Shown here in pieces: positions 20,849-47,426 of a DNA stretch of 54,719 nucleotides. The stretch's first letter is position 1. Each line of letters starts with the position of its first letter. A program made the translations under genes and the position numbers. The notes under the pieces are model-generated. The model made no database searches. It saw nothing but the letters and a program-made list of their open reading frames with translations, and was not told the DNA's origin. Origin of the DNA: Chiloscyllium plagiosum (Eukaryota); NCBI RefSeq assembly GCF_004010195.1, contig NC_057717.1:73797145-73851863 (forward strand), written 5' to 3'.

Positions 20849-20916
<68 letters not shown>
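20849..20916 (+). repeat. (GATA)17 microsatellite
   Basis: Perfect tetranucleotide array. Confidence 0.97.
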
Positions 20917-25899: not shown

Positions 25900-26560
25900 C
25901 CTATATCAAACTGCTATTTTTATTCTCAACCTATACCACAAACCACGTTTCTCACATATTAAGTAATCAACTGACCTTTGCAGAAACATTTGTATGTAGA
26001 TGTTTATTGTGTAAACAGGAAACCCATAGTGATCCTTTGCATTGCTGTACTGTTTCCATTGAGCTATTTGCAAACGCAAGACACAGATTTGACGTTTCTA
26101 CATTTCATGAAAGCTGAATATCAGGGGGGAAAATTCAGACAGTGTGAAGATCACAGCAAGAACGCCGTGTGAAAACAATGAATATCTTATGCATCGGTAC
26201 ACTTTTCTGTCTTGTGTCAGGTTAGACTTTCATACTTTTATTCCAGATAATTTTCATGGTAAAGGCAACAGGAAGTTCCATCTTGTTGAACGTAAAGCCA
26301 CTTTGACTATAATATTAGTACCATGTGGAACCAGTATTATTGGCTATGTGTAAAATTAACCAAGGGTCAACATCTAATGTATATTATTGGGATTAAGAAA
26401 ACAAATATACTGATGACTCTACGCAGTACTCTGGACTAATACACGTCTCTCTACCAAATGATGAATATAGATGATATGTTTATTAAGCAATTGTTTTTGC
26501 AAACAAAAAAAAGTCCATTGAGCAAATTTGGCTGCCAGTTTTCTTCTATTAAAATAATAA
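25900..26560 (+). promoter_or_regulatory. Candidate promoter/enhancer region upstream of the VJ exon
   Basis: Apparently TE-free island carrying ACCACA (RUNX-like, 25935-40), AGATAA (GATA, 26245-50) and ACAGGAAGT (ETS, 26268-76). These motifs are short and could be chance matches. Confidence 0.3.
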
Positions 26561-26672: not shown

Positions 26673-27011
26673 TTACTGCTGCTGAGAAAATCCTCCATCA
26701 GACTCCTCCTTTACAAACAGCTGCCGTTGGAACCACTGTAATGCTGAATTGCCACGTTGATTGGTATGCGAGTGGAGGTGTTCACTGGTACAAACAACAG
26801 CAACGAGAATATCTACAATTCGTTTACATAGTACGTAAACACTTTGCTTCAAATGGAAGATTTTCTGGAAAAGTCAACGCTGACTCGAAAATATATACGC
26901 TTGTGATTCAGAATGTGCAAAGAAATGATTCAGGTCAATATTACTGTGCAGCTAGGGAATTTTATGGAGTCGCCTACAAAATGGGAAATGGATCGAAATT
27001 GCTTATAACAG
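26673..27011 (+). CDS. Ig V-set exon with germline-joined J-like G strand (VJ exon)
   Basis: Acceptor ctgttttaatAG (26671-72) and donor G|GTAGGG (27012); 339 nt, phase 1-1. V-set hallmarks: LHQTP, B-strand Cys (MLNC), WYKQ, GRFSG, YTLVIQNVQRNDSGQYYC, then a CDR3-like loop AAREFYGVAYK and J-like MGNGSKLLIT (cf. FGxGTxLxV). Confidence 0.95.
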
Positions 27012-27641: not shown

Positions 27642-27956
27642 GGGTGGCACGGTGATTCAATGATTAGCACTACTGCCTCACAGCGCCAGGGACCTGTTTT
27701 TGATTCCCGCCATGGGCGACTGTCTGTGTGGAGTTTGGACATTCTCCATGTCTGCGTGGGTTTCCTCTTGGTGTTCCGGTTTTCTCCCACAATCCAAAAG
27801 ATGTACAGTTAGGAGAATTGGACACACTAAATTGCTCTGAGTGTTAGGTGAATTAGTCAGTGGTAAATGTAGGAGAATGGATCTGGGTGGGTTAGTCTTC
27901 GGAAGGTTGGTTAAGCCAAATGGCCTGTTTCCACACTGTATGGAATCTAATCTAAT
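27642..27956 (+). mobile_element. HE1-like SINE in the V-C intron
   Basis: gggtggcacggtgattcaatgattagcactactgcctcacagcgccagggacc head; tail ggcctgtttccacactgta..aatctaatctaat. Confidence 0.9.
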
Positions 27957-30557: not shown

Positions 30558-30860
30558 GTTCCCCAACTGTCTTTCTCTTATCATCACCACTGGATGAAAT
30601 GTTTCACATGGAATCTATCACATTGGTATGCTTAGTAAACAACGTGTTCTCTGATTCATTTCCCATCGGCTGGAATATTACCACAAGGGATAACAAGGCT
30701 TGGACGTATTCGGGGACAATTATCTCTGCTGGAGAATACGGTATCATAAGTCACTTCAGAGTCCCAGCAGAAACATGGAAACACGGAGCTTTAATCACTT
30801 GCTCAGTTCAAATCAACTCAGAAGAAATTCTTACCAGTGAAAATATCTCCTATAGAAGAG
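30558..30860 (+). CDS. Ig C1-set constant-domain exon
   Basis: Acceptor cttctccaactcaacAG (30556-57) and donor G|GTAAAT (30861); 303 nt, phase 1-1. SPTVFLLSSP, TLVCLVNNVFSD, C-strand Trp (IGWN) and SHFRVPAETWKHGALITCSV resemble Ig light-chain/TCR constant domains. Confidence 0.92.
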
Positions 30861-33996: not shown

Positions 33997-34107
33997 AGTC
34001 CCAACGTGTCAATTGCCATTTAATGTATTACTGGAATTCATTGATGATAATGCTCCCTCTCCTGATGTTAGCTGCCACAAGTTGGATTTACAAGAAATGT
34101 TATTCAG
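33997..34107 (+). CDS. Stalk + transmembrane exon
   Basis: Strong acceptor tttctctgtcttctccAG (33995-96) and donor CAG|GTAGGA; 111 nt, phase 1-1, open in the required frame. Encodes ESQRVNCH-LMYYWNSLMIMLPLLMLAATSWIY-KKCYS: a hydrophobic span followed by a KK stop-transfer. Confidence 0.85.
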
Positions 34108-36409: not shown

Positions 36410-36465
36410 GTAACTGCGGGAAAGAATCATCCACAGATGCTAGACCACGTAATCCAGAGCAGCAG
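36410..36465 (+). CDS. Cytoplasmic exon 1
   Basis: Branch-like gctaat, acceptor ttttctttctttgcttcAG (36408-09) and donor CAG|GTAAAT; 56 nt, phase 1-0. Encodes GNCGKESSTDARPRNPEQQ and sits in a small unique island between two CR1 fragments. Confidence 0.75.
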
Positions 36466-36749
36466 GTAAATGCATGAGCTTTTTTTTCTCTCTACAAGTG
36501 TACTTGAATTACTTTGGCTTGAAAAATAATGTTTAAGACAGATGATGAAGATGAATGAATAATTCTAAAGATTTCAGTGTGAACAATACAAAAGATTACT
36601 GTTTAACATTTTGGTCGAAATTAAATCTGCAGAAGGTATACACGTGGATACTTAAAGTAAAAGGTTATATGTAAATACAAAAGGAATACTGCATTCAACG
36701 ATGACAGGTTGAAAGCAGTTATAGACCGGTGAGCTTTACTTCAGTTGAG

Positions 36750-37820
36750 AGTAAAAGTTTGGAAAAGGATATCAGACATAGGATTTATAATCATCACGAG
36801 AGGACTATGTTGATTCGGGATAGTCAACACTGTTTTGTGAAGGGTAAGTAGTTCCCCACATACCTTATTGTGTTCTTTGAGAAGGTGACCAAACAGGTGG
36901 CTGAGGGTCAACTATTTGATGTGGTGTACATGGATTTCAGTAAGGCGTTTGCCAATGTTCCCAACAATAGCCTATTGCACAAAATATGGAGGCATGGGAT
37001 TGAGGGTGATTTAGCGGTTTGGATAAGAAATTGGCTAGCTGGAAAATAATATGGTGTTAGTTGATGGGAAATGTTCATTGCGGAGTTCAATTACTGGCGG
37101 TGTAAAGCAAAGGATCTGTTTTGGGTCACTGCTGTTTGTAAGTTCCTGAATGGCCTCGACGAGGGCTTGGAAAGACATGTTAGTAAATTTACGGAAGACA
37201 CTAAAGTTGGTGGAGTTGTGGATAGTCCTGAAGGAATTTGTGGGTGACAGAGGGGCATAGGTAAGCTGCAGAACTGTACTGTGAGGTGACAAATGTAATT
37301 TGAAATGGTAAAGTGTGAGGCGATTCATTTCGTAAGGCGTAACAGGAATAAAGTTTACTGGGGTATTGGTAAGATTCTTAGTAGTGTAGAAGAGCAGAGA
37401 GATCTCGGTGCACATGTACATATATCCCTGAAAGTTACCACCCAAGTTAATAGGGGTGTTAAGAAGGTGTATGGTGTGTTAGCTTTTACTTGTAGAGAGA
37501 TTGAGCGTCTGAGCCACGAGATCATGCTGCAGCTGTACAAAACTCTAGTGCGGCCGCAATTGGAGTATTGTTTACAGTTCTGGTCGTTGATAGATAAAGA
37601 ACTGATATCAGGCGTAGTTTGCTTACTCAGAGAGTAGTGGGAACGTGGAACACATTGCCTGAAAGAGCAATTTTAGGGTTTTTGAATGGTCATTGGGTCA
37701 ACATATGGACGAAAATGGAATAGTGCAGGATAGATAGGCTTCAGATTCGTTCCAAAAGTCGGTGCAATATCGAAGACCAAAGGGCCTGTTCTGTGCTATC
37801 ATGTTCTTATGTTCTACGTT
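36750..37820 (+). mobile_element. CR1 ORF2 3' fragment
   Basis: MDFSKAF..VP, LYKTLVRPQLEYCLQFWS and a tail atgttcttatgttcta. Confidence 0.88.
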
Positions 37821-39380
37821 CTATATTCTAAGAGCAGATGATAATGCTTTGAATATTATTGTTGGGAATAAATATGATCAACGTGTGAACTCGTCAGAAA
37901 TTAGGGAAGGGTTAAAAAATAGGTTGATGGTTGCTTCAAATATCAACCAATATTGAGCAAGATGTTCATATTTATTTTGAGATAAACGCAGGTACGTCAG
38001 AAGGACAGCTGGATAGCAGCCTTCTCTGTTCCAAGAGATATAAATCCAACCTTTCTTCGTAACTATAATTTCCAAGCTATGGCAAAATTCCAGTAAATCT
38101 TCTCTGCCCTCTCTGCAAAGTAATTATGTTCTTCCGGTCGTGTGGTGACGACGATCTTACGCATTCTCATCATTATATTCAAACGTTTATATTCTATGCC
38201 TCTGCTAATGAAGAAGACAATTGCATATTTTATTTTCTTAAATTCACTCATGGGAAGTGAACATCGCTGTCAAGGCCAGCATTAGTTGTGGAGTCATTTT
38301 CCAGAGGACAGTTAAGAGACAATTAAGTTAGACAAGGTAAGGGTAACAGGTTTCCTTCCCCGATGGACATTCATGAACCAGATGATTTTTCTTTCTGAAA
38401 ATCGACAATAGTGTCCTAATCATCATTAAACTCAGAATTCCAGATTTTATGTTGGACTTAAAGTCCACCATCCGTCAAGATGCAATTCGAATGCATGTCC
38501 CCAGAACATTTTCTATGTCTCCAAGTTAGTAGTCTATCGATAATACCACGAAGGCCATTTGTGCCCCAACATGCCTTTGTTGAAAACTCATCTGCTTGCA
38601 CTGCTACCTGTCGGGATCTGTGCACATGCACGTCAGGTTTTCTCACTTCAAAAACATCTTTTAACATGTTCCCATTTATAGTGCATTCTCTTTTACTGCT
38701 TGACGTCCCTAATTACGTTACTTCACTCTTATCAGATTTGGCCTCAATTCATTCATGGCCTCCAACTGTCACTTCCCTTTGTACTGAAACCAACCAATCG
38801 CATAATAACCTAAAACAAAAGCAGTCGTCCCATCACTGAGCCCTGGTGAACAGTACTTCAAACAGGTTTCCATTCACAAGGGCTACATTTAACCATTATT
38901 CTTTATTCCCAGTTAGTAAGTCAACAGTGGATCTAATTCACCACATTACCCTGTATCCCTTTGGCTTTTGCTTACTTGACCATTCTGCCAAATGAAACCA
39001 TGTCAACTGCCTTACTGAAATCCATATGCACAACGAACACTGCACTATCCTCATCGATCTCCTTGTCACTTCCACAAAGAATTCAATTAAATTTGTAAGG
39101 TGTGACCTTCCGTTGCATAAACCCATACTGATTATCCCTGACTAGTTCATGGTATTCTAAGTGATAGTTCATCTAATCTCCCAGGATTGTAAGAAAACTG
39201 CCTGCTACCAAAGTAAGACAAATTGGCCTACAATAAGTTGACATCACATTTGGACAGGTTTTCGACTGCAGACTCATATTTGCATTCACTCTGTCCTCTG
39301 ACACGTCACGTGTATCTAGTGAGGATTGGAAAATAATGCTCATAGCATCTGGTTTTCCTCCCTTGCCTTCAATATGCTTC

Positions 39381-39696
39381 AGATTAGATTAGATTACTTA
39401 TAGTGTGGAAACATGCCCTTTGGCCCAACAAGTCCACACCGACCCACCGAAGCACAAACCACCCATTCCCCTACATTTACCCCTTTACCTAACACTACGG
39501 GCAATTTAGCATGGCCAATCCACCTGACCTGCACATCTTTGGACTGTGGGAGGAAACCGGAGCACCCGGAGGAAACCCACGCAGACACGGGGACAATGTG
39601 CAAACTCCACACAGTCAGTCGCCTGAGTCATGAATTGAACCCGGGTCTCTGGCGCTGTGAGGCAGCAGAGCTAACCACTGTGCCACCGTGTCGCCC
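39381..39696 (-). mobile_element. HE1-like SINE, relatively young, inserted into a minus-strand CR1
   Basis: (agatt)3 tail, well-preserved body and tRNA-like head (ctaaccactgtgccaccgtgtcgccc). Confidence 0.92.
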
Positions 39697-40011
39697 ACCA
39701 GTGCAATTCATCCAGCTCTGGCGACTGATCCATTTCCAAGAATTCAGATTCCTCTAACCTTGTGATTATTTGTCTAATATCCACACTGTTTCTTTTGGAA
39801 TGCGACATTTACATCATCCCTTTGCTTTGTAAGGCAAAAAAACATTTAATTTTTGTCTGCGTATCCTCTGCATCTGCGCATAAATTCCCTTCTTTAACTC
39901 AGGTAGGAACCACTTTTTCTTTAACTATCATTTTGCTCCTTAAATACGAGTGAGATATCTTTCAGTTTTCCGTTATCTTGCTTGCTAATAGTTTTCTTGT
40001 GCTCTCTTTGA

Positions 40012-43000
40012 TATAGAGTCATAGAACCAGAGTCATACACCATTGGTAAATAGACCATTTCCTGCATTTCGATCATACCAAGCAGTTATCCTATAAAAAT
40101 GTAATCCCATTTGCCAGCATTTAGCCATTATCCTTCTGAACCATTCCTATTCATACACATATCCAGATTATTTCTGAATGTTGTAATCATACCAGCCTCC
40201 ACCACTTCCTCTGGCACGTCATTCCATACATGCAATAACCTGTACGTGAAAAAGTTGCCCCCCTTTGGACCCATTCATATCTTGCCCTCTCATCTTGAAC
40301 CAATGTCCTCTAGTTTGGCACTTCCCCAACTCGAGGAATTTTTTTTTATAGTATCCATCCATGCCACTCATGACTTTATAAACCTCTCCACGTCACCCCT
40401 CAGCCTCCGATGCTCCAATGAAAATTGCCCCCGCCTATTGAGCCTCTCACTATAGCTAAAATCATACATATCTGACAACACTGTTATGAATCTTTTCTGA
40501 ACTATTTCTAGTCTCACTATATTCTTTCTATGGGTGTAGTGTGTGTGTGGTGGGGGGGGGGGGCGGAAGAGACCAGGATAGCGTGTAATACTCTACAACC
40601 GGCTTAACCAATGTCCTGTACGGCTGTAACATGACCTCTCAACTCCTATACTCAATTCCCTGATTAATGAAGGCAGGTATACTAGCGCCTTCTTCACTAT
40701 CTTATCTGTCTGCGACTCCACTTTCGACAAACTATGCACCTGCACTCCGAGGTCTCTTTGTTCAGAAATATTCACCAGGACCTTACCATCATATCTATAA
40801 GTCCTCCCCTGATTTGCCTTTCCAAAATGTAGCACCTAACATTTATCTAAATTAGAGACATCTGTCACTACTCCACCAATTGACTCATGAGATCCTTTTC
40901 ACTGCCAATTGCAGTGTCATCTGCAAACTTCATAACCCTACCTCTTATGTTAACATTCAAATCAGTTATTTAAATGAAAATAACAGTGGACACGACATTG
41001 ATCTTTGTTGCACATTACTGGTCACTCGCCTTCAGATAAAAAACAATCCTTCACCTTACCCTCTGTTTTCTCCCTTTGGACCAATTCTGCATCCGAATAG
41101 CTGGTTCTCCCTTGAATCTAATGATCTAAACTTGCAAACTAAGCGACATGCAGAACCTTGAAATAGAGCGAACTGAAGTTGATATAGATCACATCCACCT
41201 CTCTGCCCTCAGCAATCCTATAAGACCATAAGACATAGGAGCGGAAGTAAGGCCATTCGGCCCATCGAGTTCACTCCGCCATTCAATTATGGTGATGGCA
41301 TTTCAACTCCACTTACCCGCATTCTCCCCGTAGCCCTTAATTCCTTGTGACATCAAGAATTTATCAATTTCTGCCTTGAAGACATTTAGCGTCCCAGCCT
41401 CCACTGCACTCTGTGGCAATGAATTCCACAGGCCCACCGCTCTCTGGCTGAAGAAATGTCTCCGCATTTCTGTTCTGAACTTACCCCCTCTAATTCTAAG
41501 GCTGTGTCCACGGGTCCTAGTCTCCTCGCCTAACGGAAACAATTTCCTAACGTCCACCCTGTTGTTACTTCTTCAAAAAATAGAATTCAGTTAGTGAGAC
41601 ACGATTTCCCACTATCAAAGCAACGTTGTCCATCTTTACTCAGTCCTTGCTTTTTGAAATACATGCATATCTTGTACCTCAGGATTGCCTGTAACAACTT
41701 TTCCACCAAAGATATCAGGCTGACCAGTTAATAATTCACTAACTGTTCCTTAACACTTTTCTAAAATAGTTGCACAACATTAGCCAACGCCCAGTTTTCC
41801 AGCACCTCACCTGTGATTATTGATGATAAAAGAATCTCCGCAAATGGGCCCTGTTATCCATTCCCTCGTTTCGCTCAGAGTCTAATGGTACACCTGATTA
41901 GGTCCCGTGGATATATCCATCTTTTTGGGTTTTAAGACGTCCAGCACCTGCTCCTTTGCAATTTTTTCCAAGATGTTGGTATTAACTTCCCCAAGTTCTG
42001 TATCTCCCATATCTTTCTCCACAGTAAACGCTGATGCAAAATATTGATTTAGGATCTTACCTGTCTCCTGCAGTTCCACAATTATGCGACATTTTTGAAC
42101 TTAGAGGGATCCTATCTTCTGCCTAGTTACCCCGTTATCATTAATGTATTTGCAGAATGCCTTTGGATTCTTCTTAACTCTATTTACCAACGCTTTTTCA
42201 TGTCCCTTTTATGCCCTCCTGATTTTCCTCTTAGGTATACTCCGACTGTCTTTGTACTTTTCCCGGGATTTTCCTGCTATGTACACATGACATATGCTTC
42301 TTTTTTACTCCTGACCAAAACCTCAAATTCTCTAGGAATCCAGGATTCACTACTCCTACCAGTCTTGCCCTTTACCTTAACAGGAACATACTATCTCTGG
42401 ACTCCCATTGTTTCAATGTTAAATGATTCTAATTTTCCATTTGATCCTTTATCTGGGAACATCTGCAAAAACTACTTTTGAAAGTTCCAGCGTAATGTCG
42501 TCAAAATTGGCCTTCCTCCAACTTAAAGCATTAATTTTAAAATTCAAATCTATTTTAAAACTAATAAAATTATGGTGTCCGGCCACAAAGCTCTGCACTA
42601 CTGACACCTTAGTCATCTGCATTGCCTTACTCACCAAGAATAGGACGTATTTTGCAACTTTTGGAGTAGGTGCATCCACATAATAAATTACTTGTGCACA
42701 CAAACAATTTTTTCTCTCTCTCTAAGTTCTTAGCATTGCGGCAGAGCTGGTCTATGCTTCAAATATTAATATCCCCTACCATCCCAGCCTCCTCTTCTCA
42801 ACGATTACTGAGACATCCTTACAAATGTGTTTTTTTTTTCCCACTGACTATTGGGAGGTCTGTTACACAATCCCAATCAGCTGATCATCTTTTTCTTATT
42901 GTTCAGTTCCACACAAATAACATTACTGTACGTATTCCCAGGAATATCCTCGCTCAGTAGTGTCATAGTGTTATCCTTTATCAAAAGCTCCCTCCGCTCC

Positions 43001-44800
43001 TGCTCCATTTGCTATCCTTCCCCTTGTATCAACATTCTGGAACATAAAGCTGCCAGTTCTGTCCATCCCTGAACCATATCTCGAAAATTACTATGATGGC
43101 CCAGTCCCATGTTCTCAACCATACACTCAGTTCATCTGCCGTGCCTGTTCAACCTTTCTGAAATAAATACAGATTAATTTATCAGTCCTACCACGTTCTC
43201 TGCTTTTTTCCTGCCTGCTCTGACTGTTTGACTTACTCAACAGAGTTTTTCCCAACTGCATCAATCTCAGACTGATCCCTTTCCTCACTATCTCCCTGAT
43301 CCCACCCCTTCCTGTTTTAAATCCTCCCGAGCAGCTCTATGCAATTCACCCCACCAGCATATTAGTCCCCTTCCAACTCAGTTGCAATGTATCTTTCTTA
43401 TACAAGTCACTCCTATCTCAGAAGAGATCTAAATGATCCAAAAATGTGCATGCTTCGTTCCTGGACCAGCTTCTCAGCGACGCATTCATCTGCTCTATCG
43501 TCCCATTCCTAACCCAACTAGCTTTTGGCACTGGGAGAATCCAGATGTTACCGTCTTCGAGGACCTCCTTTTAATATTCCTGCCTCACTCCCTTGACTCT
43601 CCTCAGAATCCTGTCCTTCGCTCTTCTAATGTCATTGGTTCCGATATGTGCAGCAACCTCCTGCTAGTTTCTCTCGCAGTTGAGAATATTCTGCACCCTC
43701 TCCGAGTTATCCTTGATCCTGGTACCAGGTAGCCAAACCACCATTCTGATGTGTCACTGTCGGTTGGAGACACGTCTGCCTATACATCTGACTAGAGAGT
43801 CCACTGTCACAGCCGACGGTTTAAAACTCGTTACATTGCAGCCAGTCTCGGTATCTCGCTATCATTGGTATATTCCCATGATTTCATCACCCCCTACGGT
43901 TTCCAAAGCATAGTGGTTTGCGATGCGGATAGCCACAGCAGAATCTTACACGACTTGCCTCACTTTCCTATCTTTCCTGGAGGTGACCCATCTATCTGAA
44001 CTGATCTTCAGTTTATCTTCCTTCCTGCAACTGCCATTCATCACATGTACAACTCTGTAAATTCCTGATTGCCGCTAACTGCTGATCCAACCGATGCATG
44101 GAAACTGATTGGATTGTCAACACATACACTTTCTGGATATTTTATTACCAGTATCATGGAAACGCGCCCTAATCTCTCACATCCAACAGAAGTGCACATC
44201 ACTTTACTAAAGATCATCTTTGCATCTTGGCAATCTACAGATCCAGAAAGAAAAGTGCAGTTTTACTCCTGTAAAAACACTGCTCCAGGCTAAATTACCA
44301 GCTATGTTTTGAGTTTTTGACGTTTGAACAAGAGACCGATGTCAATAGAATCACAAAGAAACCACTCTACTCGATATTGTAGATTTACAAAAAAAAACTC
44401 GCCATTTAGTTGAGCCTCAGCTGTGATCTCCACACAGATTTCTCCAAGGATAGCTGTCAATTTCCCTGTTCGTTTATTTTTCTTACATGAACTCCAATGT
44501 GTAGAGGACCTTGAAATCAAACAGCAAAGGCAGCAGCTGTGAAGGTTTACGGCTAGGTCAGACAACAATGTAGATTTCCTTCTCTGTTGATTCACTTCCC
44601 ACTATGGTGTCACTTCTTTGTCTCCCTTCCTCCTCTTTTAAAGTGACGTAGGTTTGATCTTGTTTTCCTCAAAGTTCCAAAACAATGGAAGGCTTATAAA
44701 ACAGTAATTTTTTGCTCCTAGAATTCGAGCAAATCTGTTCCAACACTGTAAATACCTCAACAAGGAGTATCTGTTACTGCACAGTTTTTTCTGTTGTCAT
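40012..44800 (-). mobile_element. Near full-length but decayed CR1 (5' UTR, ORF1, ORF2), nested in an older CR1 (about 38000-40010 and 44830-46280)
   Basis: atagagtcatag tail at the left, RT and endonuclease remnants at 40100-43150, ORF1-like remnants at about 43250-44170, then 5' UTR-like sequence. Confidence 0.7.
41220..41560 (-). mobile_element. Young 5'-truncated CR1 inserted in an older CR1
   Basis: Intact KLFPLGEETRTRGHSLRIRGGKFRTEMRRHFFSQRAVGLWNSLP; (ataagac)2 tail; the host RT text resumes on either side. Confidence 0.9.
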
Positions 44801-46888
44801 TTTTTTAAACTCATACCCGGTAAGTTCGATGTTACTGTAGGTTTTCTGCAGCATCGAGTTTTTGTTTTGTGACTATCATAAGTTTATTTTTCTGCTTATT
44901 CTTTCTCTGTACTTTTTAAAATCAAGATTCTGGTCCAGATTTGGCAGTACTATTCTTATTTTTTGAAGGACTATGTCTGCATCGTGCCCAATAGATCTCA
45001 CTAAATACTGCTTCCAACGGGTTCATCACTGATTTATCCATTAGCAGTCCTGCTCAGTGCAAATCAGCCAAATCACTTCTCGGTTTTGCTACGTTTTCCT
45101 TCATGCAGTTTTAATCTTTGATTCCTGGTTTAACTCGGTCCTTTAACAGTAAAATGTAACTGAATTGTGATCACTATTTCCAGCAGTTGACCACTGTCAG
45201 ATGCTCGCTCACTTGCCTATCTTCATCTCCCGGGGCTAAAACTTGCGAAGTCTCTCATTTCGAGTGATGGCATTGACGCATGTTGCCTTTCTTTTAAAAA
45301 AAAGTTTTATTTAGAAGCAGTTCATGATTTTTTCAATCTCAATGCTGCGTATATTATCTGAACTCTTGTTGGAATTGGGGTAGTTAAATTGTCTTCTACT
45401 GTTGTTGAAATGTTATACCGAAGGGCAAACGTTGTCTAAATATATATTCATCTCTCTTCCTCTCACTATTTCGGGTCTGTTGTACACTCCAGTTGTGTGA
45501 CTGCCCCTTTTTTTTAATTCCAAAAGTTAATCCATAATGCCTTGTTTCTTAAGCCGTTTCGTTTATCATACGTTGATTTTTTAAACAGTAATGATGTATC
45601 CCCTGTCCTTTTGATCATCCACATTATTCTACTTTAACAATGTATGACCAGGCATAGTAAGTGGTCACTTTTGCCGTTCATTTAGCCAATTTTCGATTAT
45701 AGCAAAGGCACCATGCTTCCATATGCTCTCCTATGCCATTAGTGCATCTGCCTTAGTTGCAATACTCATTGTATTGTACTATAAACAACTGAATTCCTTT
45801 GCTCGTCATTTTAAAATTCTCGTTTCTTTGTTTCTCTGAGCCGCTGTCTCCATCACAAACCAACATTCTAACTCGCGTTTTATGATCTGAATCTGACACA
45901 TCTAATCCTATGCTTTGATTCCCACACTCACATCATATTGAGTTTAAACTCTCACTAAGGGAACTAAAGAAAGCCCCTGCGAGGGTACTTTCGCAACTCT
46001 GACCAGGTGCAGCCCATCAGGTTTTACAGGTCCCACCTTCCTCAGAAACAGTGCCAATACCTCAAGAACCGAAACTCCTGCCTGACGCATCATTTCTCTA
46101 GTCAGGCACTCATGAGGTAGCAGCTGCTGTTTTCTCCTGAGTGGCCTTCACCCAACGGTATCCAAGATGGCATTTACGTTTGACGGTGCAATGGTCACAG
46201 TGGACTACTACACTTCCTCCACTATTCTCCTACTATGTTTAAGGGTCACTCATTACGTTTTCTCCCTGTGTAATCTTCACTTGACATAATCTATGGATGT
46301 GATGGCACTGCAGGGGTGAAGTGGAGATTCACCAGGATGTTACAGAGATGCAGTAGTATCGCTATAAAGAGAGACTGAATAGTCTCTCATTTCTTTTAGA
46401 GTGGACAAGGCTGAAGGGAATCTTTATTAAGGTGCATAAGATAATGAGCAGCATGATTATGGTGGAAAGGCAGTTTCCCCCTAAATTGACGAATCAATAA
46501 CAATGGGCCTAATTTTAAGGCGAAAGATTCAAGTTGTCGAGAGGATTTGCAGACAAAAAAAAACTGAAATGCACTTCTTGGAAGGGTAGTAGAGGCAGGT
46601 AATTTGTAATCAGTGGTTAGCAAGAAGCCATTTTCAATTCTGCGCTGGTGGATATCAATGGGATAAACGGTTATGAACTTTAAAACTAACACATCTGAGG
46701 GAGTGGAGATTTGCAACCCGCTCGCCAATTTTATGAAAAAAAAACTTGAACTAGTCGTTGAATTGGAAATCATTACGGGTATGTGAATGTAAAATCTAAC
46801 TGAATGGTGCTATATGACAGAAGTGACAAATCAACGCTTATGGCAGCTCGATGTATATGTGACTAATGATATCTGATTTCTTCCATAG

Positions 46889-46933
46889 ACTGTCTATGCT
46901 CATTTAGCATTCACTGTAGACTCAACGGTCTGA
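46889..46933 (+). CDS. Terminal cytoplasmic exon with tyrosine motif (TVYAHL) and stop
   Basis: Branch-like gactaat (46861-67) and acceptor tttcttccatAG (46887-88). Phase 0 gives TVYAHLAFTVDSTV-TGA (46931-33), followed by unique AT-rich UTR-like sequence and AATAAA. Confidence 0.7.
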   Translation, partial: TVYAHLAFTVDSTV

Positions 46934-47152
46934 TGGGACACACATTCTTGAATTGAAGAACACATCCAATGGCTTTTGTTTTCTCCCGTTATGAAGGCAT
47001 AAAGAGACTTTACTCAGTAATAATCAAATTAATATTTCCTCCACTCTGTGTTATGAATCCCAAAGGCATAAAGTGGAGGACGTATTCAGAAGAAGAAGTG
47101 ACAAAATGAAGCCTGAAGTTCCACTTGATGAGGATTGTGTCATCGCTGCCCT

Positions 47153-47158
<6 letters not shown>

Positions 47159-47198
<40 letters not shown>
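47159..47198. repeat. (TA)20 microsatellite in the predicted 3' UTR
   Basis: Read directly from the sequence. Confidence 0.97.
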
Positions 47199-47420: not shown

Positions 47421-47426
47421 AATAAA
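47421..47426 (+). promoter_or_regulatory. Candidate polyadenylation signal of the Ig-like receptor gene
   Basis: AATAAA about 490 nt downstream of the predicted stop codon, in non-TE sequence. Confidence 0.45.

What the first reader, a model, noticed from the sequence alone, without database searches (positions are those of the whole stretch)
46889..46933. Terminal micro-exon encodes both an ITIM/ITSM-like motif (TVYAHL) and a class I PDZ-ligand-like C-terminus (DSTV)
Seen: a 14-aa exon 10.4 kb from the previous exon, with good branch/acceptor sequence and matching phase 0. Known: TxYxx(V/I) is the ITSM (SAP/SHP-2) consensus and (S/I/V/L)xYxx(L/V) the ITIM consensus, so TVYAHL is a hybrid. 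x-S/T-x-V-COOH is the class I PDZ-binding consensus, and PDZ-binding tails occur in IgSF adhesion receptors. Inference: an inhibitory or switch receptor that may also be scaffolded at cell contacts, an unusual combination on a TCR/IgL-like ectodomain.
Basis: partly seen in the sequence, partly recalled or inferred. Interest (0 to 1): 0.7.

Follow-up and report, generated by a model that had tools for sequence, protein, structure and literature searches.

The report
Shark antibody-like inhibitory receptor tail
This is the real last exon of one of a cluster of antibody-like, non-rearranging shark surface-receptor genes; its tyrosine motif is kept across the whole family and likely recruits braking phosphatases, whereas the supposed PDZ-binding end is not kept in most sister genes and is probably incidental.

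Summary
The exon is real. An assembled contig from one public run joins 36465 to 46889. The six-exon gene (leader, joined VJ, C1, TM, two tail exons; 298 aa) is one of about 11 copies in a cluster, most likely of a bamboo shark. It is an ordinary last exon with 45 coding bases, not a micro-exon. The tyrosine motif is the family norm: Y, A(+1) and L(+3) are invariant in 27 of 27 fourteen-residue shark tails. 26 of 28 fit the SHP-2 C-SH2 consensus and 0 of 28 the ITSM, so it reads as an SHP-type inhibitory motif, not a SAP switch. The PDZ reading is weak. S/T-x-V ends 1 of 28 shark tails, a class I end 3-4 of 28, and 0 of 9 ray tails; position -2 is most often proline. The family extends to lungfish, sturgeon, amphibians, reptiles and birds. 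It fits the described PRARP/VJC1 non-rearranging receptors, although no named PRARP sequence could be compared. More interesting than the tail: a second subfamily is predicted to pair with it Fab-like (0.68 against 0.01, possibly from likeness to Fabs).

The parts
26178..26220 (+). Split-leader exon (14 codons + 1 nt, phase-1 donor)
   Evidence: Best profile hit upstream of V (score 23.5, next 15.0); the same exon lies 0.4-0.6 kb before V in the + strand paralogues. Not checked in reads.
26673..27011 (+). Single exon encoding a germline-joined VJ domain (G-strand GNGSKL)
   Evidence: Pfam V-set E 1.7e-15; splice sites; no CAC(A/T)GTG heptamer between leader and C1 exon
30558..30860 (+). C1-set domain exon
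   Evidence: Pfam C1-set 31.5 bits, cut-off 21; phases 1/1
33997..34107 (+). Connecting peptide with a family-invariant Cys (codon 34014-34016) and uncharged transmembrane segment
   Evidence: Exon scan; matched by P0001 residues 210-267; Cys235 invariant in 32 of 32 aligned family proteins
36410..36465 (+). First cytoplasmic exon (phase 1 to 0)
   Evidence: its 3' end is the loose end of the X5 contig
46860..46888 (+). Branch-point-like site, pyrimidine tract and AG acceptor
   Evidence: Sequence; used in the X5 contig
46889..46912 (+). Tyrosine motif T-V-Y-A-H-L-A-F (pY-2 to pY+5), the only tyrosine distal to the membrane
   Evidence: consensus from PMC8113834 and PMC12151841 passages
46919..46933 (+). 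C-terminal D-S-T-V and stop; matches class I PDZ pattern, not conserved in the family
   Evidence: pattern from PMC6100724
46934..47426 (+). 3' UTR, seen in the contig to at least 47150; candidate AATAAA at 47421 (3' end inferred)

Best explanation
The exon ends a non-rearranging VJ-C1-transmembrane receptor from a shark gene cluster, and its single tyrosine motif likely works as an inhibitory docking site: once phosphorylated it would bind the SH2 domains of SHP-2/SHP-2L or SHP-1, while the DSTV end is probably a chance variant of a drifting tail. Shown: gene structure, one spliced contig across the junction, the cluster, conservation of Y/A/L/F and non-conservation of S-x-V. Inferred from known biochemistry: ligand engagement, phosphorylation by a Src-family kinase, then SHP recruitment and damping of leukocyte activation. 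Inferred: each chain has one motif, so a disulfide-linked dimer (invariant stalk Cys) would supply the two phosphotyrosines for the tandem SH2 domains. The partner is either a like chain or the second subfamily. Ligand and cell type are untested.
For: Junction contig. In 27 fourteen-residue shark tails Y, A+1 and L+3 have zero entropy; pY+5 is aromatic in 26 of 28 and hydrophobic in 28 of 28 sharks and 9 of 9 rays. These are the pY+1, +3, +5 positions that fill the SHP-2 pocket, and T is allowed at pY-2 by C-SH2 (PMC8113834 passages). SHP-2 and SHP-2L with conserved binding residues exist in sharks (PMC12151841 passages). Position -2 from the end is P 12, Q 6, S 5, L 4 of 27. Ser there sits on separate branches: this gene with P0001, P0013, P0016 and P0024; the sisters of P0013 and P0016 have Pro. 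In this gene the Ser codon TCA is one transition from the Pro codon CCA of a paralogue. Class I ends in 3-4 of 28 are close to the 8.2% of a human C-terminal library (PMC6100724). Stalk Cys invariant in 32 of 32. A type 1/type 2 ectodomain pair from zebra shark scored 0.68 against a best control of 0.01, with both stalk Cys in the interface lists.
Against: No binding, phosphorylation or cell data. Only 2 of 28 shark tails fit the strict ITIM pattern. Expression rests on one contig in one run of unrecorded type. The shark tail end is not free to drift entirely: length is 14 in 27 of 28, D at -3 in 23 of 27 and a hydrophobic last residue in 24 of 28, so some C-terminal recognition may exist. The zebra-shark orthologue keeps S at -2 (ends S-T-F). 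YxxL is also the generic AP-2 endocytosis pattern (recalled). The complex score may come from likeness to solved Fab/TCR pairs; the homodimer was not modelled.
Confidence: 0.66

Rival explanations
1. Dual-function tail: in this gene and its orthologues the tyrosine motif signals and the D-S-T-V end also binds a class I PDZ scaffold, a gene-specific gain.
For: Exact match to S/T-x-hydrophobic with an acid at -3. The orthologue P0001 (UFBoot/SH-aLRT 100/99) keeps D-S-T and a hydrophobic end. Tail length and hydrophobic end are conserved in 27 and 24 of 28 shark tails.
Against: 0 of 7 sister genes with a located tail have S/T at -2. 0 of 9 ray tails and 1 of 127 further family proteins (many partial models) end in a class I pattern. 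The terminal V is unique among 28. Only one orthologue was available.
Confidence: 0.15
2. A true switch motif: SAP/EAT-2 binds the T-x-pY site and turns the receptor from inhibitory to activating.
For: T at pY-2 in 24 of 27 shark tails. 34 of 127 further family proteins, many reptilian, carry a strict TxYxx(V/I).
Against: 0 of 28 shark tails have V/I at pY+3; L is invariant. T at -2 is also a C-SH2 preference of SHP-2. SAP presence in this genome was not checked.
Confidence: 0.09
3. The motif is mainly a trafficking signal: unphosphorylated YxxL binds AP-2 and internalises ligand.
For: Y-x-x-L fits the tyrosine sorting pattern (recalled); single motif near the C-terminus.
Against: Invariant A(+1) and hydrophobic +5 are explained by SHP-2 SH2 binding and not needed for AP-2 (recalled). 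Family relatives without the tyrosine carry a transmembrane Arg, as in paired activating/inhibitory families.
Confidence: 0.1

Closest known systems
PRARP / VJC1 non-rearranging antigen-receptor-like genes (Fu et al. 2019; Ohta et al. 2019; neither paper held, details recalled; name, title and one-line mentions seen in PMC10751288 and PMC11599192)
   Same: Joined VJ exon, C1 domain, TM, one ITIM/ITSM-type tyrosine; two subfamilies; relatives found here in lungfish, coelacanth, sturgeon, caecilian, newt, turtles, lizards, crocodilians and birds; the listed bird hits lack a precomputed C1-set match, as recalled for avian PRARP.
   Different: No hit carried the name PRARP, so orthology is not shown. 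PMC10751288 places PRARP among VJ genes in the MHC, whereas this cluster (C8) and the second locus (C39) are not on the class I contig (C37) here. A shark cluster of about 11 copies was not found described in my searches.
UrIg and UrIg2 (Flajnik 2023, 2025; PMC12227049 abstract, sections 6, 7 and first part of 12 read)
   Same: Elasmobranch, non-rearranging, single VJ exon, split leader, C1-type domains, often mis-annotated as Ig chains.
   Different: UrIg2 has nine C domains in nurse shark and lies in the IgH/TCR complex; UrIg lies in the MHC. This gene has one C1 domain and a tyrosine-motif tail, and has tetrapod relatives.
NITRs of ray-finned fish (bioRxiv 10.1101/2021.06.11.448072, passages)
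   Same: Clustered multigene family, joined VJ exon, two Ig domains, inhibitory motifs, predicted NK-type function.
   Different: NITR's second domain is an intermediate domain with a J-like end; here it is C1-set. The paper notes no NITR homologues found in cartilaginous fish.
PD-1 / SIRP-type SHP-recruiting receptors (PMC12151841, passages)
   Same: Same SH2-binding grammar: T or hydrophobic at -2, A at +1, hydrophobic at +3, F/Y at +5.
   Different: They carry two or more tyrosine motifs on one chain; this chain has one. Ectodomain is Ig-light-chain-like.

Membership tests
PRARP/VJC1 | V and J joined in one germline exon, no rearrangement | tested here: met
   One 339-nt exon holds both cysteines and the G-x-G strand; no heptamer between leader and C1
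PRARP/VJC1 | Single C1-set domain, TM, one ITIM/ITSM-type tyrosine (definition recalled) | tested here: met
PRARP/VJC1 | Own clade apart from Ig chains, spanning bony fish, amphibians, reptiles, birds (recalled) | tested here: met
   58 family rows separate from 8 Ig light-chain-type rows at 100/98; 2 rows were skipped by the script (P0141, P0143); TCR chains, NKp30, UrIg and NITR were not in the tree
PRARP/VJC1 | Sequence orthology to chicken PRARP1/PRARP2 or Xenopus VJC1 genes | not testable with these tools
   No listed hit is named PRARP (120 of 184 listed; 32); defining papers not held
PRARP/VJC1 | MHC or MHC-paralogon location (a reported property, not part of the protein definition) | tested here: inconclusive
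   Class I genes on C37, cluster on C8, second locus on C39, APH1 on C1 and C51. Flanks are gappy. In other sharks both subfamilies share one small contig, so placement here may be rearranged or misassembled.
ITSM (TxYxxV/I) | V or I at pY+3 | tested here: not met
   L in this gene and in 27 of 27 fourteen-residue tails (definition)
ITIM strict ((S/I/V/L)xYxx(I/V/L)) | S/I/V/L at pY-2 | tested here: not met
   T here; 2 of 28 shark tails fit
SHP-2 SH2 ligand | (T/V/I/y)XpY(A/s/t)X(I/V/L) with hydrophobic pY+5 | tested here: met
   This gene and 26 of 28 shark tails fit the pattern
SHP-2 SH2 ligand | Phosphorylation and physical binding | not testable with these tools
   Needs a phosphopeptide assay
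Class I PDZ ligand | S/T-x-hydrophobic free C-terminus | tested here: met
Class I PDZ ligand | Conservation of the motif in relatives | tested here: not met
   3-4 of 28 sharks, 0 of 9 rays; kept only in wide form in the single orthologue
NITR | Second domain of intermediate type with J-like end | tested here: not met
   C1-set (definition)
UrIg/UrIg2 | Several C domains; MHC or AgRC location | tested here: not met
   One C1 exon; not on the class I contig (definition)

The most novel reading that the evidence does not exclude
Sharks keep a germline, non-rearranging two-chain receptor system built like a TCR or Fab. About eight variable type 1 chains from this cluster pair through V-V, C1-C1 and a stalk disulfide with a type 2 chain, giving a small combinatorial repertoire. 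The two single tyrosine motifs together switch on SHP-2. Tail-less members with a transmembrane arginine act as activating counterparts. It would be a living model of the heterodimeric receptor before RAG.
Probability: 0.22. Interest if true: 0.75.

Novelty: new member of a known kind. Interest (0 to 1): 0.33.

Why it matters
The flagged motif pair is not a new signalling design. The tyrosine motif is a standard SHP-type site and the PDZ-like end is probably incidental. The gene itself is of moderate value: it marks an expanded, automatically mis-annotated shark cluster of joined-VJ plus C1 receptors, the architecture proposed for the precursor of rearranging antigen receptors. It shows that such receptors can signal through their own tail rather than through CD3/CD79, and it gives testable candidates for shark inhibitory, possibly NK-type, receptors and for a germline heterodimer.

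Tried and rejected
No run was listed as an RNA holder on record, and raw-read run X7 gave no reads: neither is evidence. A processed pseudogene as the source of the spliced contig is unlikely: a DNA search of the genome found only this exon and one 76% paralogue, though that search is a lower bound. Synteny through flanking ORFs gave only repeats, a GPCR-like ORF, zinc fingers and gaps. APH1, fused to a relative in one lizard gene model, is not adjacent here. The PRARP, Ohta 2019 and UrIg 2023 papers are not held, so whether they already describe these shark genes is unknown. Paper searches and supplement searches of PMC10751288 and PMC12227049 found no description of the cluster. No earlier scan findings. 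A rearranged Ig/TCR gene was rejected: it has its own tail exons, no RSS, and forms a separate clade.

Full report
Observation. The frame 46889-46933 reads TVYAHLAFTVDSTV-stop behind a good acceptor, and the exon 36410-36465 ends in phase 0, 10,423 bases upstream. Four public runs were laid on 46400-47150. In X5 one contig starts at the acceptor and its loose end is the end of exon 36410-36465. Its unlaid upstream part is 468 letters, exactly C1 + TM + first tail exon less the two shared letters. A second, shallower X5 contig is intronic. X2 and X4 run through intron and exon unspliced, and X7 gave nothing from about 2% of its reads. No difference from the window was listed inside the coding part. 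The junction is therefore seen once, in one run whose type is not on record. The exon continues as 3' UTR, so 'micro-exon' describes only its coding part.

The gene. Leader 26178-26220, VJ 26673-27011, C1 30558-30860, TM 33997-34107, tail 36410-36465 and 46889-46933 give 897 bases, 298 residues, one stop. Pfam calls the domains V-set and C1-set. The AlphaFold model of the zebra-shark orthologue (mean pLDDT 74.7, tail under 50) matches mostly Fab chains, many of them light chains, and a TCR chain at 20-26% identity. The protein is 206 of 298 identical to Stegostoma P0001, its sister in the tree (100/99). The long intron is not special. It holds repeat fragments also found elsewhere in the window, and the V-C1 intron is 3.5 kb here against about 90 bases in most paralogues.

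The cluster. Eleven related V exons lie at C8:73.57-74.35 Mb. Eight genes have a located terminal exon, all of 14 codons. For the three others no tail exon was found; their V or C matches are interrupted or missing. One minus-strand copy lacks C1, as does its zebra-shark counterpart P0046. A second locus at the end of C39 has a broken copy of this type, two copies of a second subfamily (type 2; one traced to a tail ending in a similar tyrosine motif) and an Ig light-chain-like gene.

The tyrosine motif. I counted 28 shark tails (8 genomic, 20 database proteins; models without the last exon, such as P0006, P0015, P0022 and P0026, were left out, as were database copies of this genome's genes) and 9 ray tails. 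Some are close orthologues and not independent. In the 27 tails of 14 residues Y, A(+1) and L(+3) are invariant, T(-2) is in 24 and F/Y(+5) in 25. By the definitions in PMC12151841 (passages) 2 of 28 are strict ITIMs and none an ITSM. 26 of 28 match the SHP-2 C-SH2 consensus in PMC8113834 (passages), which also states that pY+5 is invariably hydrophobic in SHP-2 ligands; it is hydrophobic in 28 of 28 sharks and 9 of 9 rays. Against this, only 2 of 9 ray tails fit the C-SH2 pattern at -2. Among 127 further family proteins (mostly reptile and bird, many partial), 34 have TxYxx(V/I), 28 TxYxxL and 12 a strict ITIM. The +3 residue thus alternates within one family motif, and the 'hybrid' is a normal variant.

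The C-terminus. D-S-T-V fits class I, S/T-x-hydrophobic (PMC6100724 passage). It is the only S/T-x-V end of 28. Three of 28 fit [ST]x[VIL] and four a wider pattern, against 8.2% in a human C-terminal library quoted there. Position -2 is P in 12, Q in 6, S in 5 and L in 4 of 27; Ser appears on several separate branches. Rays extend or shorten the tail (0 of 9). In favour of some constraint: fixed length, D at -3 in 23 of 27, hydrophobic end in 24 of 28, and S kept in the one orthologue. I put a working PDZ ligand at about 15%.

Mechanism. Most likely the receptor sits on leukocytes as a disulfide-linked dimer, is phosphorylated on its single distal tyrosine after ligand binding, and recruits SHP phosphatases. 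All of these steps are inferred. The stalk Cys is invariant in 32 of 32. A prediction for zebra-shark type 1 (P0001 19-240) with type 2 (P0059 22-245) scored 0.68 against a best control of 0.01; runs agree in at least 70% of contacts and partner pLDDT is at least 78. That mark was reached by 51 of 78 solved and 2 of 108 mismatched microbial pairs, and by 39 of 65 and 2 of 126 in eukaryotes. Like complexes (Fab, TCR) are solved, so the pass may show likeness only, and no homodimer was run. Both stalk cysteines appear in the interface lists. Several relatives have an Arg at or in the transmembrane segment and no tyrosine motif in their models (P0057, P0147, P0123, P0112), which hints at paired activating forms; none was seen among the eight tailed genes of this cluster.

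Comparison. Profile searches reach rays, lungfish, coelacanth, sturgeons, amphibians, turtles, lizards, crocodilians and birds; no mammal is among the named hits. The family separates from Ig light-chain-type rows at 100/98. This matches what I recall of PRARP/VJC1. I saw only the title of Fu et al. 2019 and brief mentions, no hit bears the name, and MHC linkage is not seen in this assembly. I therefore file it as a probable, unproven member. It is not NITR, UrIg or a rearranged gene. My searches (supplements 50, 69, 70) found no description of the shark cluster, but three key papers could not be read.

Verdict. Real exon; ordinary, conserved SHP-type inhibitory motif; PDZ end probably incidental. 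New member of a known kind, interest 0.33, with the possible germline heterodimer as the better lead.

Noticed in passing
G000:C39:27.76-27.86 Mb (L043-L049): Second locus: two near-identical VJ-C1 genes of another subfamily, a frameshifted copy of the window's subfamily and an Ig light-chain-like V and C, all within 100 kb at the contig end. In whale shark a similar light-chain-like gene shares a contig with the type 1 genes.
   Followed up: partly
G000:C8:74248616-74257422 (L035, L036): Minus-strand paralogue with leader, VJ, TM and tail but no C1 exon; the zebra-shark protein P0046 has the same loss, so it is an old V-only member.
   Followed up: partly
window 47081: Runs X2 and X4 leave the reference here for other sequence while X5 follows it: a probable insertion or deletion polymorphism in the 3' UTR.
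   Followed up: no
P0057, P0147, P0123, P0112: Family members from horn shark, sterlet, a skate and probably a lungfish with an Arg at or in the transmembrane segment and no tyrosine motif: possible activating counterparts.
   Followed up: no
P0074, P0203 and other turtle proteins: Turtles have a large expansion of the same family, annotated as Ig or TCR chains; a caecilian member is annotated as PD-1.
   Followed up: no
G000:C8:73624488 (L024): One paralogue ends in Arg instead of the usual hydrophobic residue (CGT versus CTT), a sign that the last residue is not strictly needed.
   Followed up: yes
window 20849-20916, 47159-47198; 27642-27956, 39384-39696: GATA and TA microsatellites, and copies of a short interspersed repeat in the introns.
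   Followed up: no
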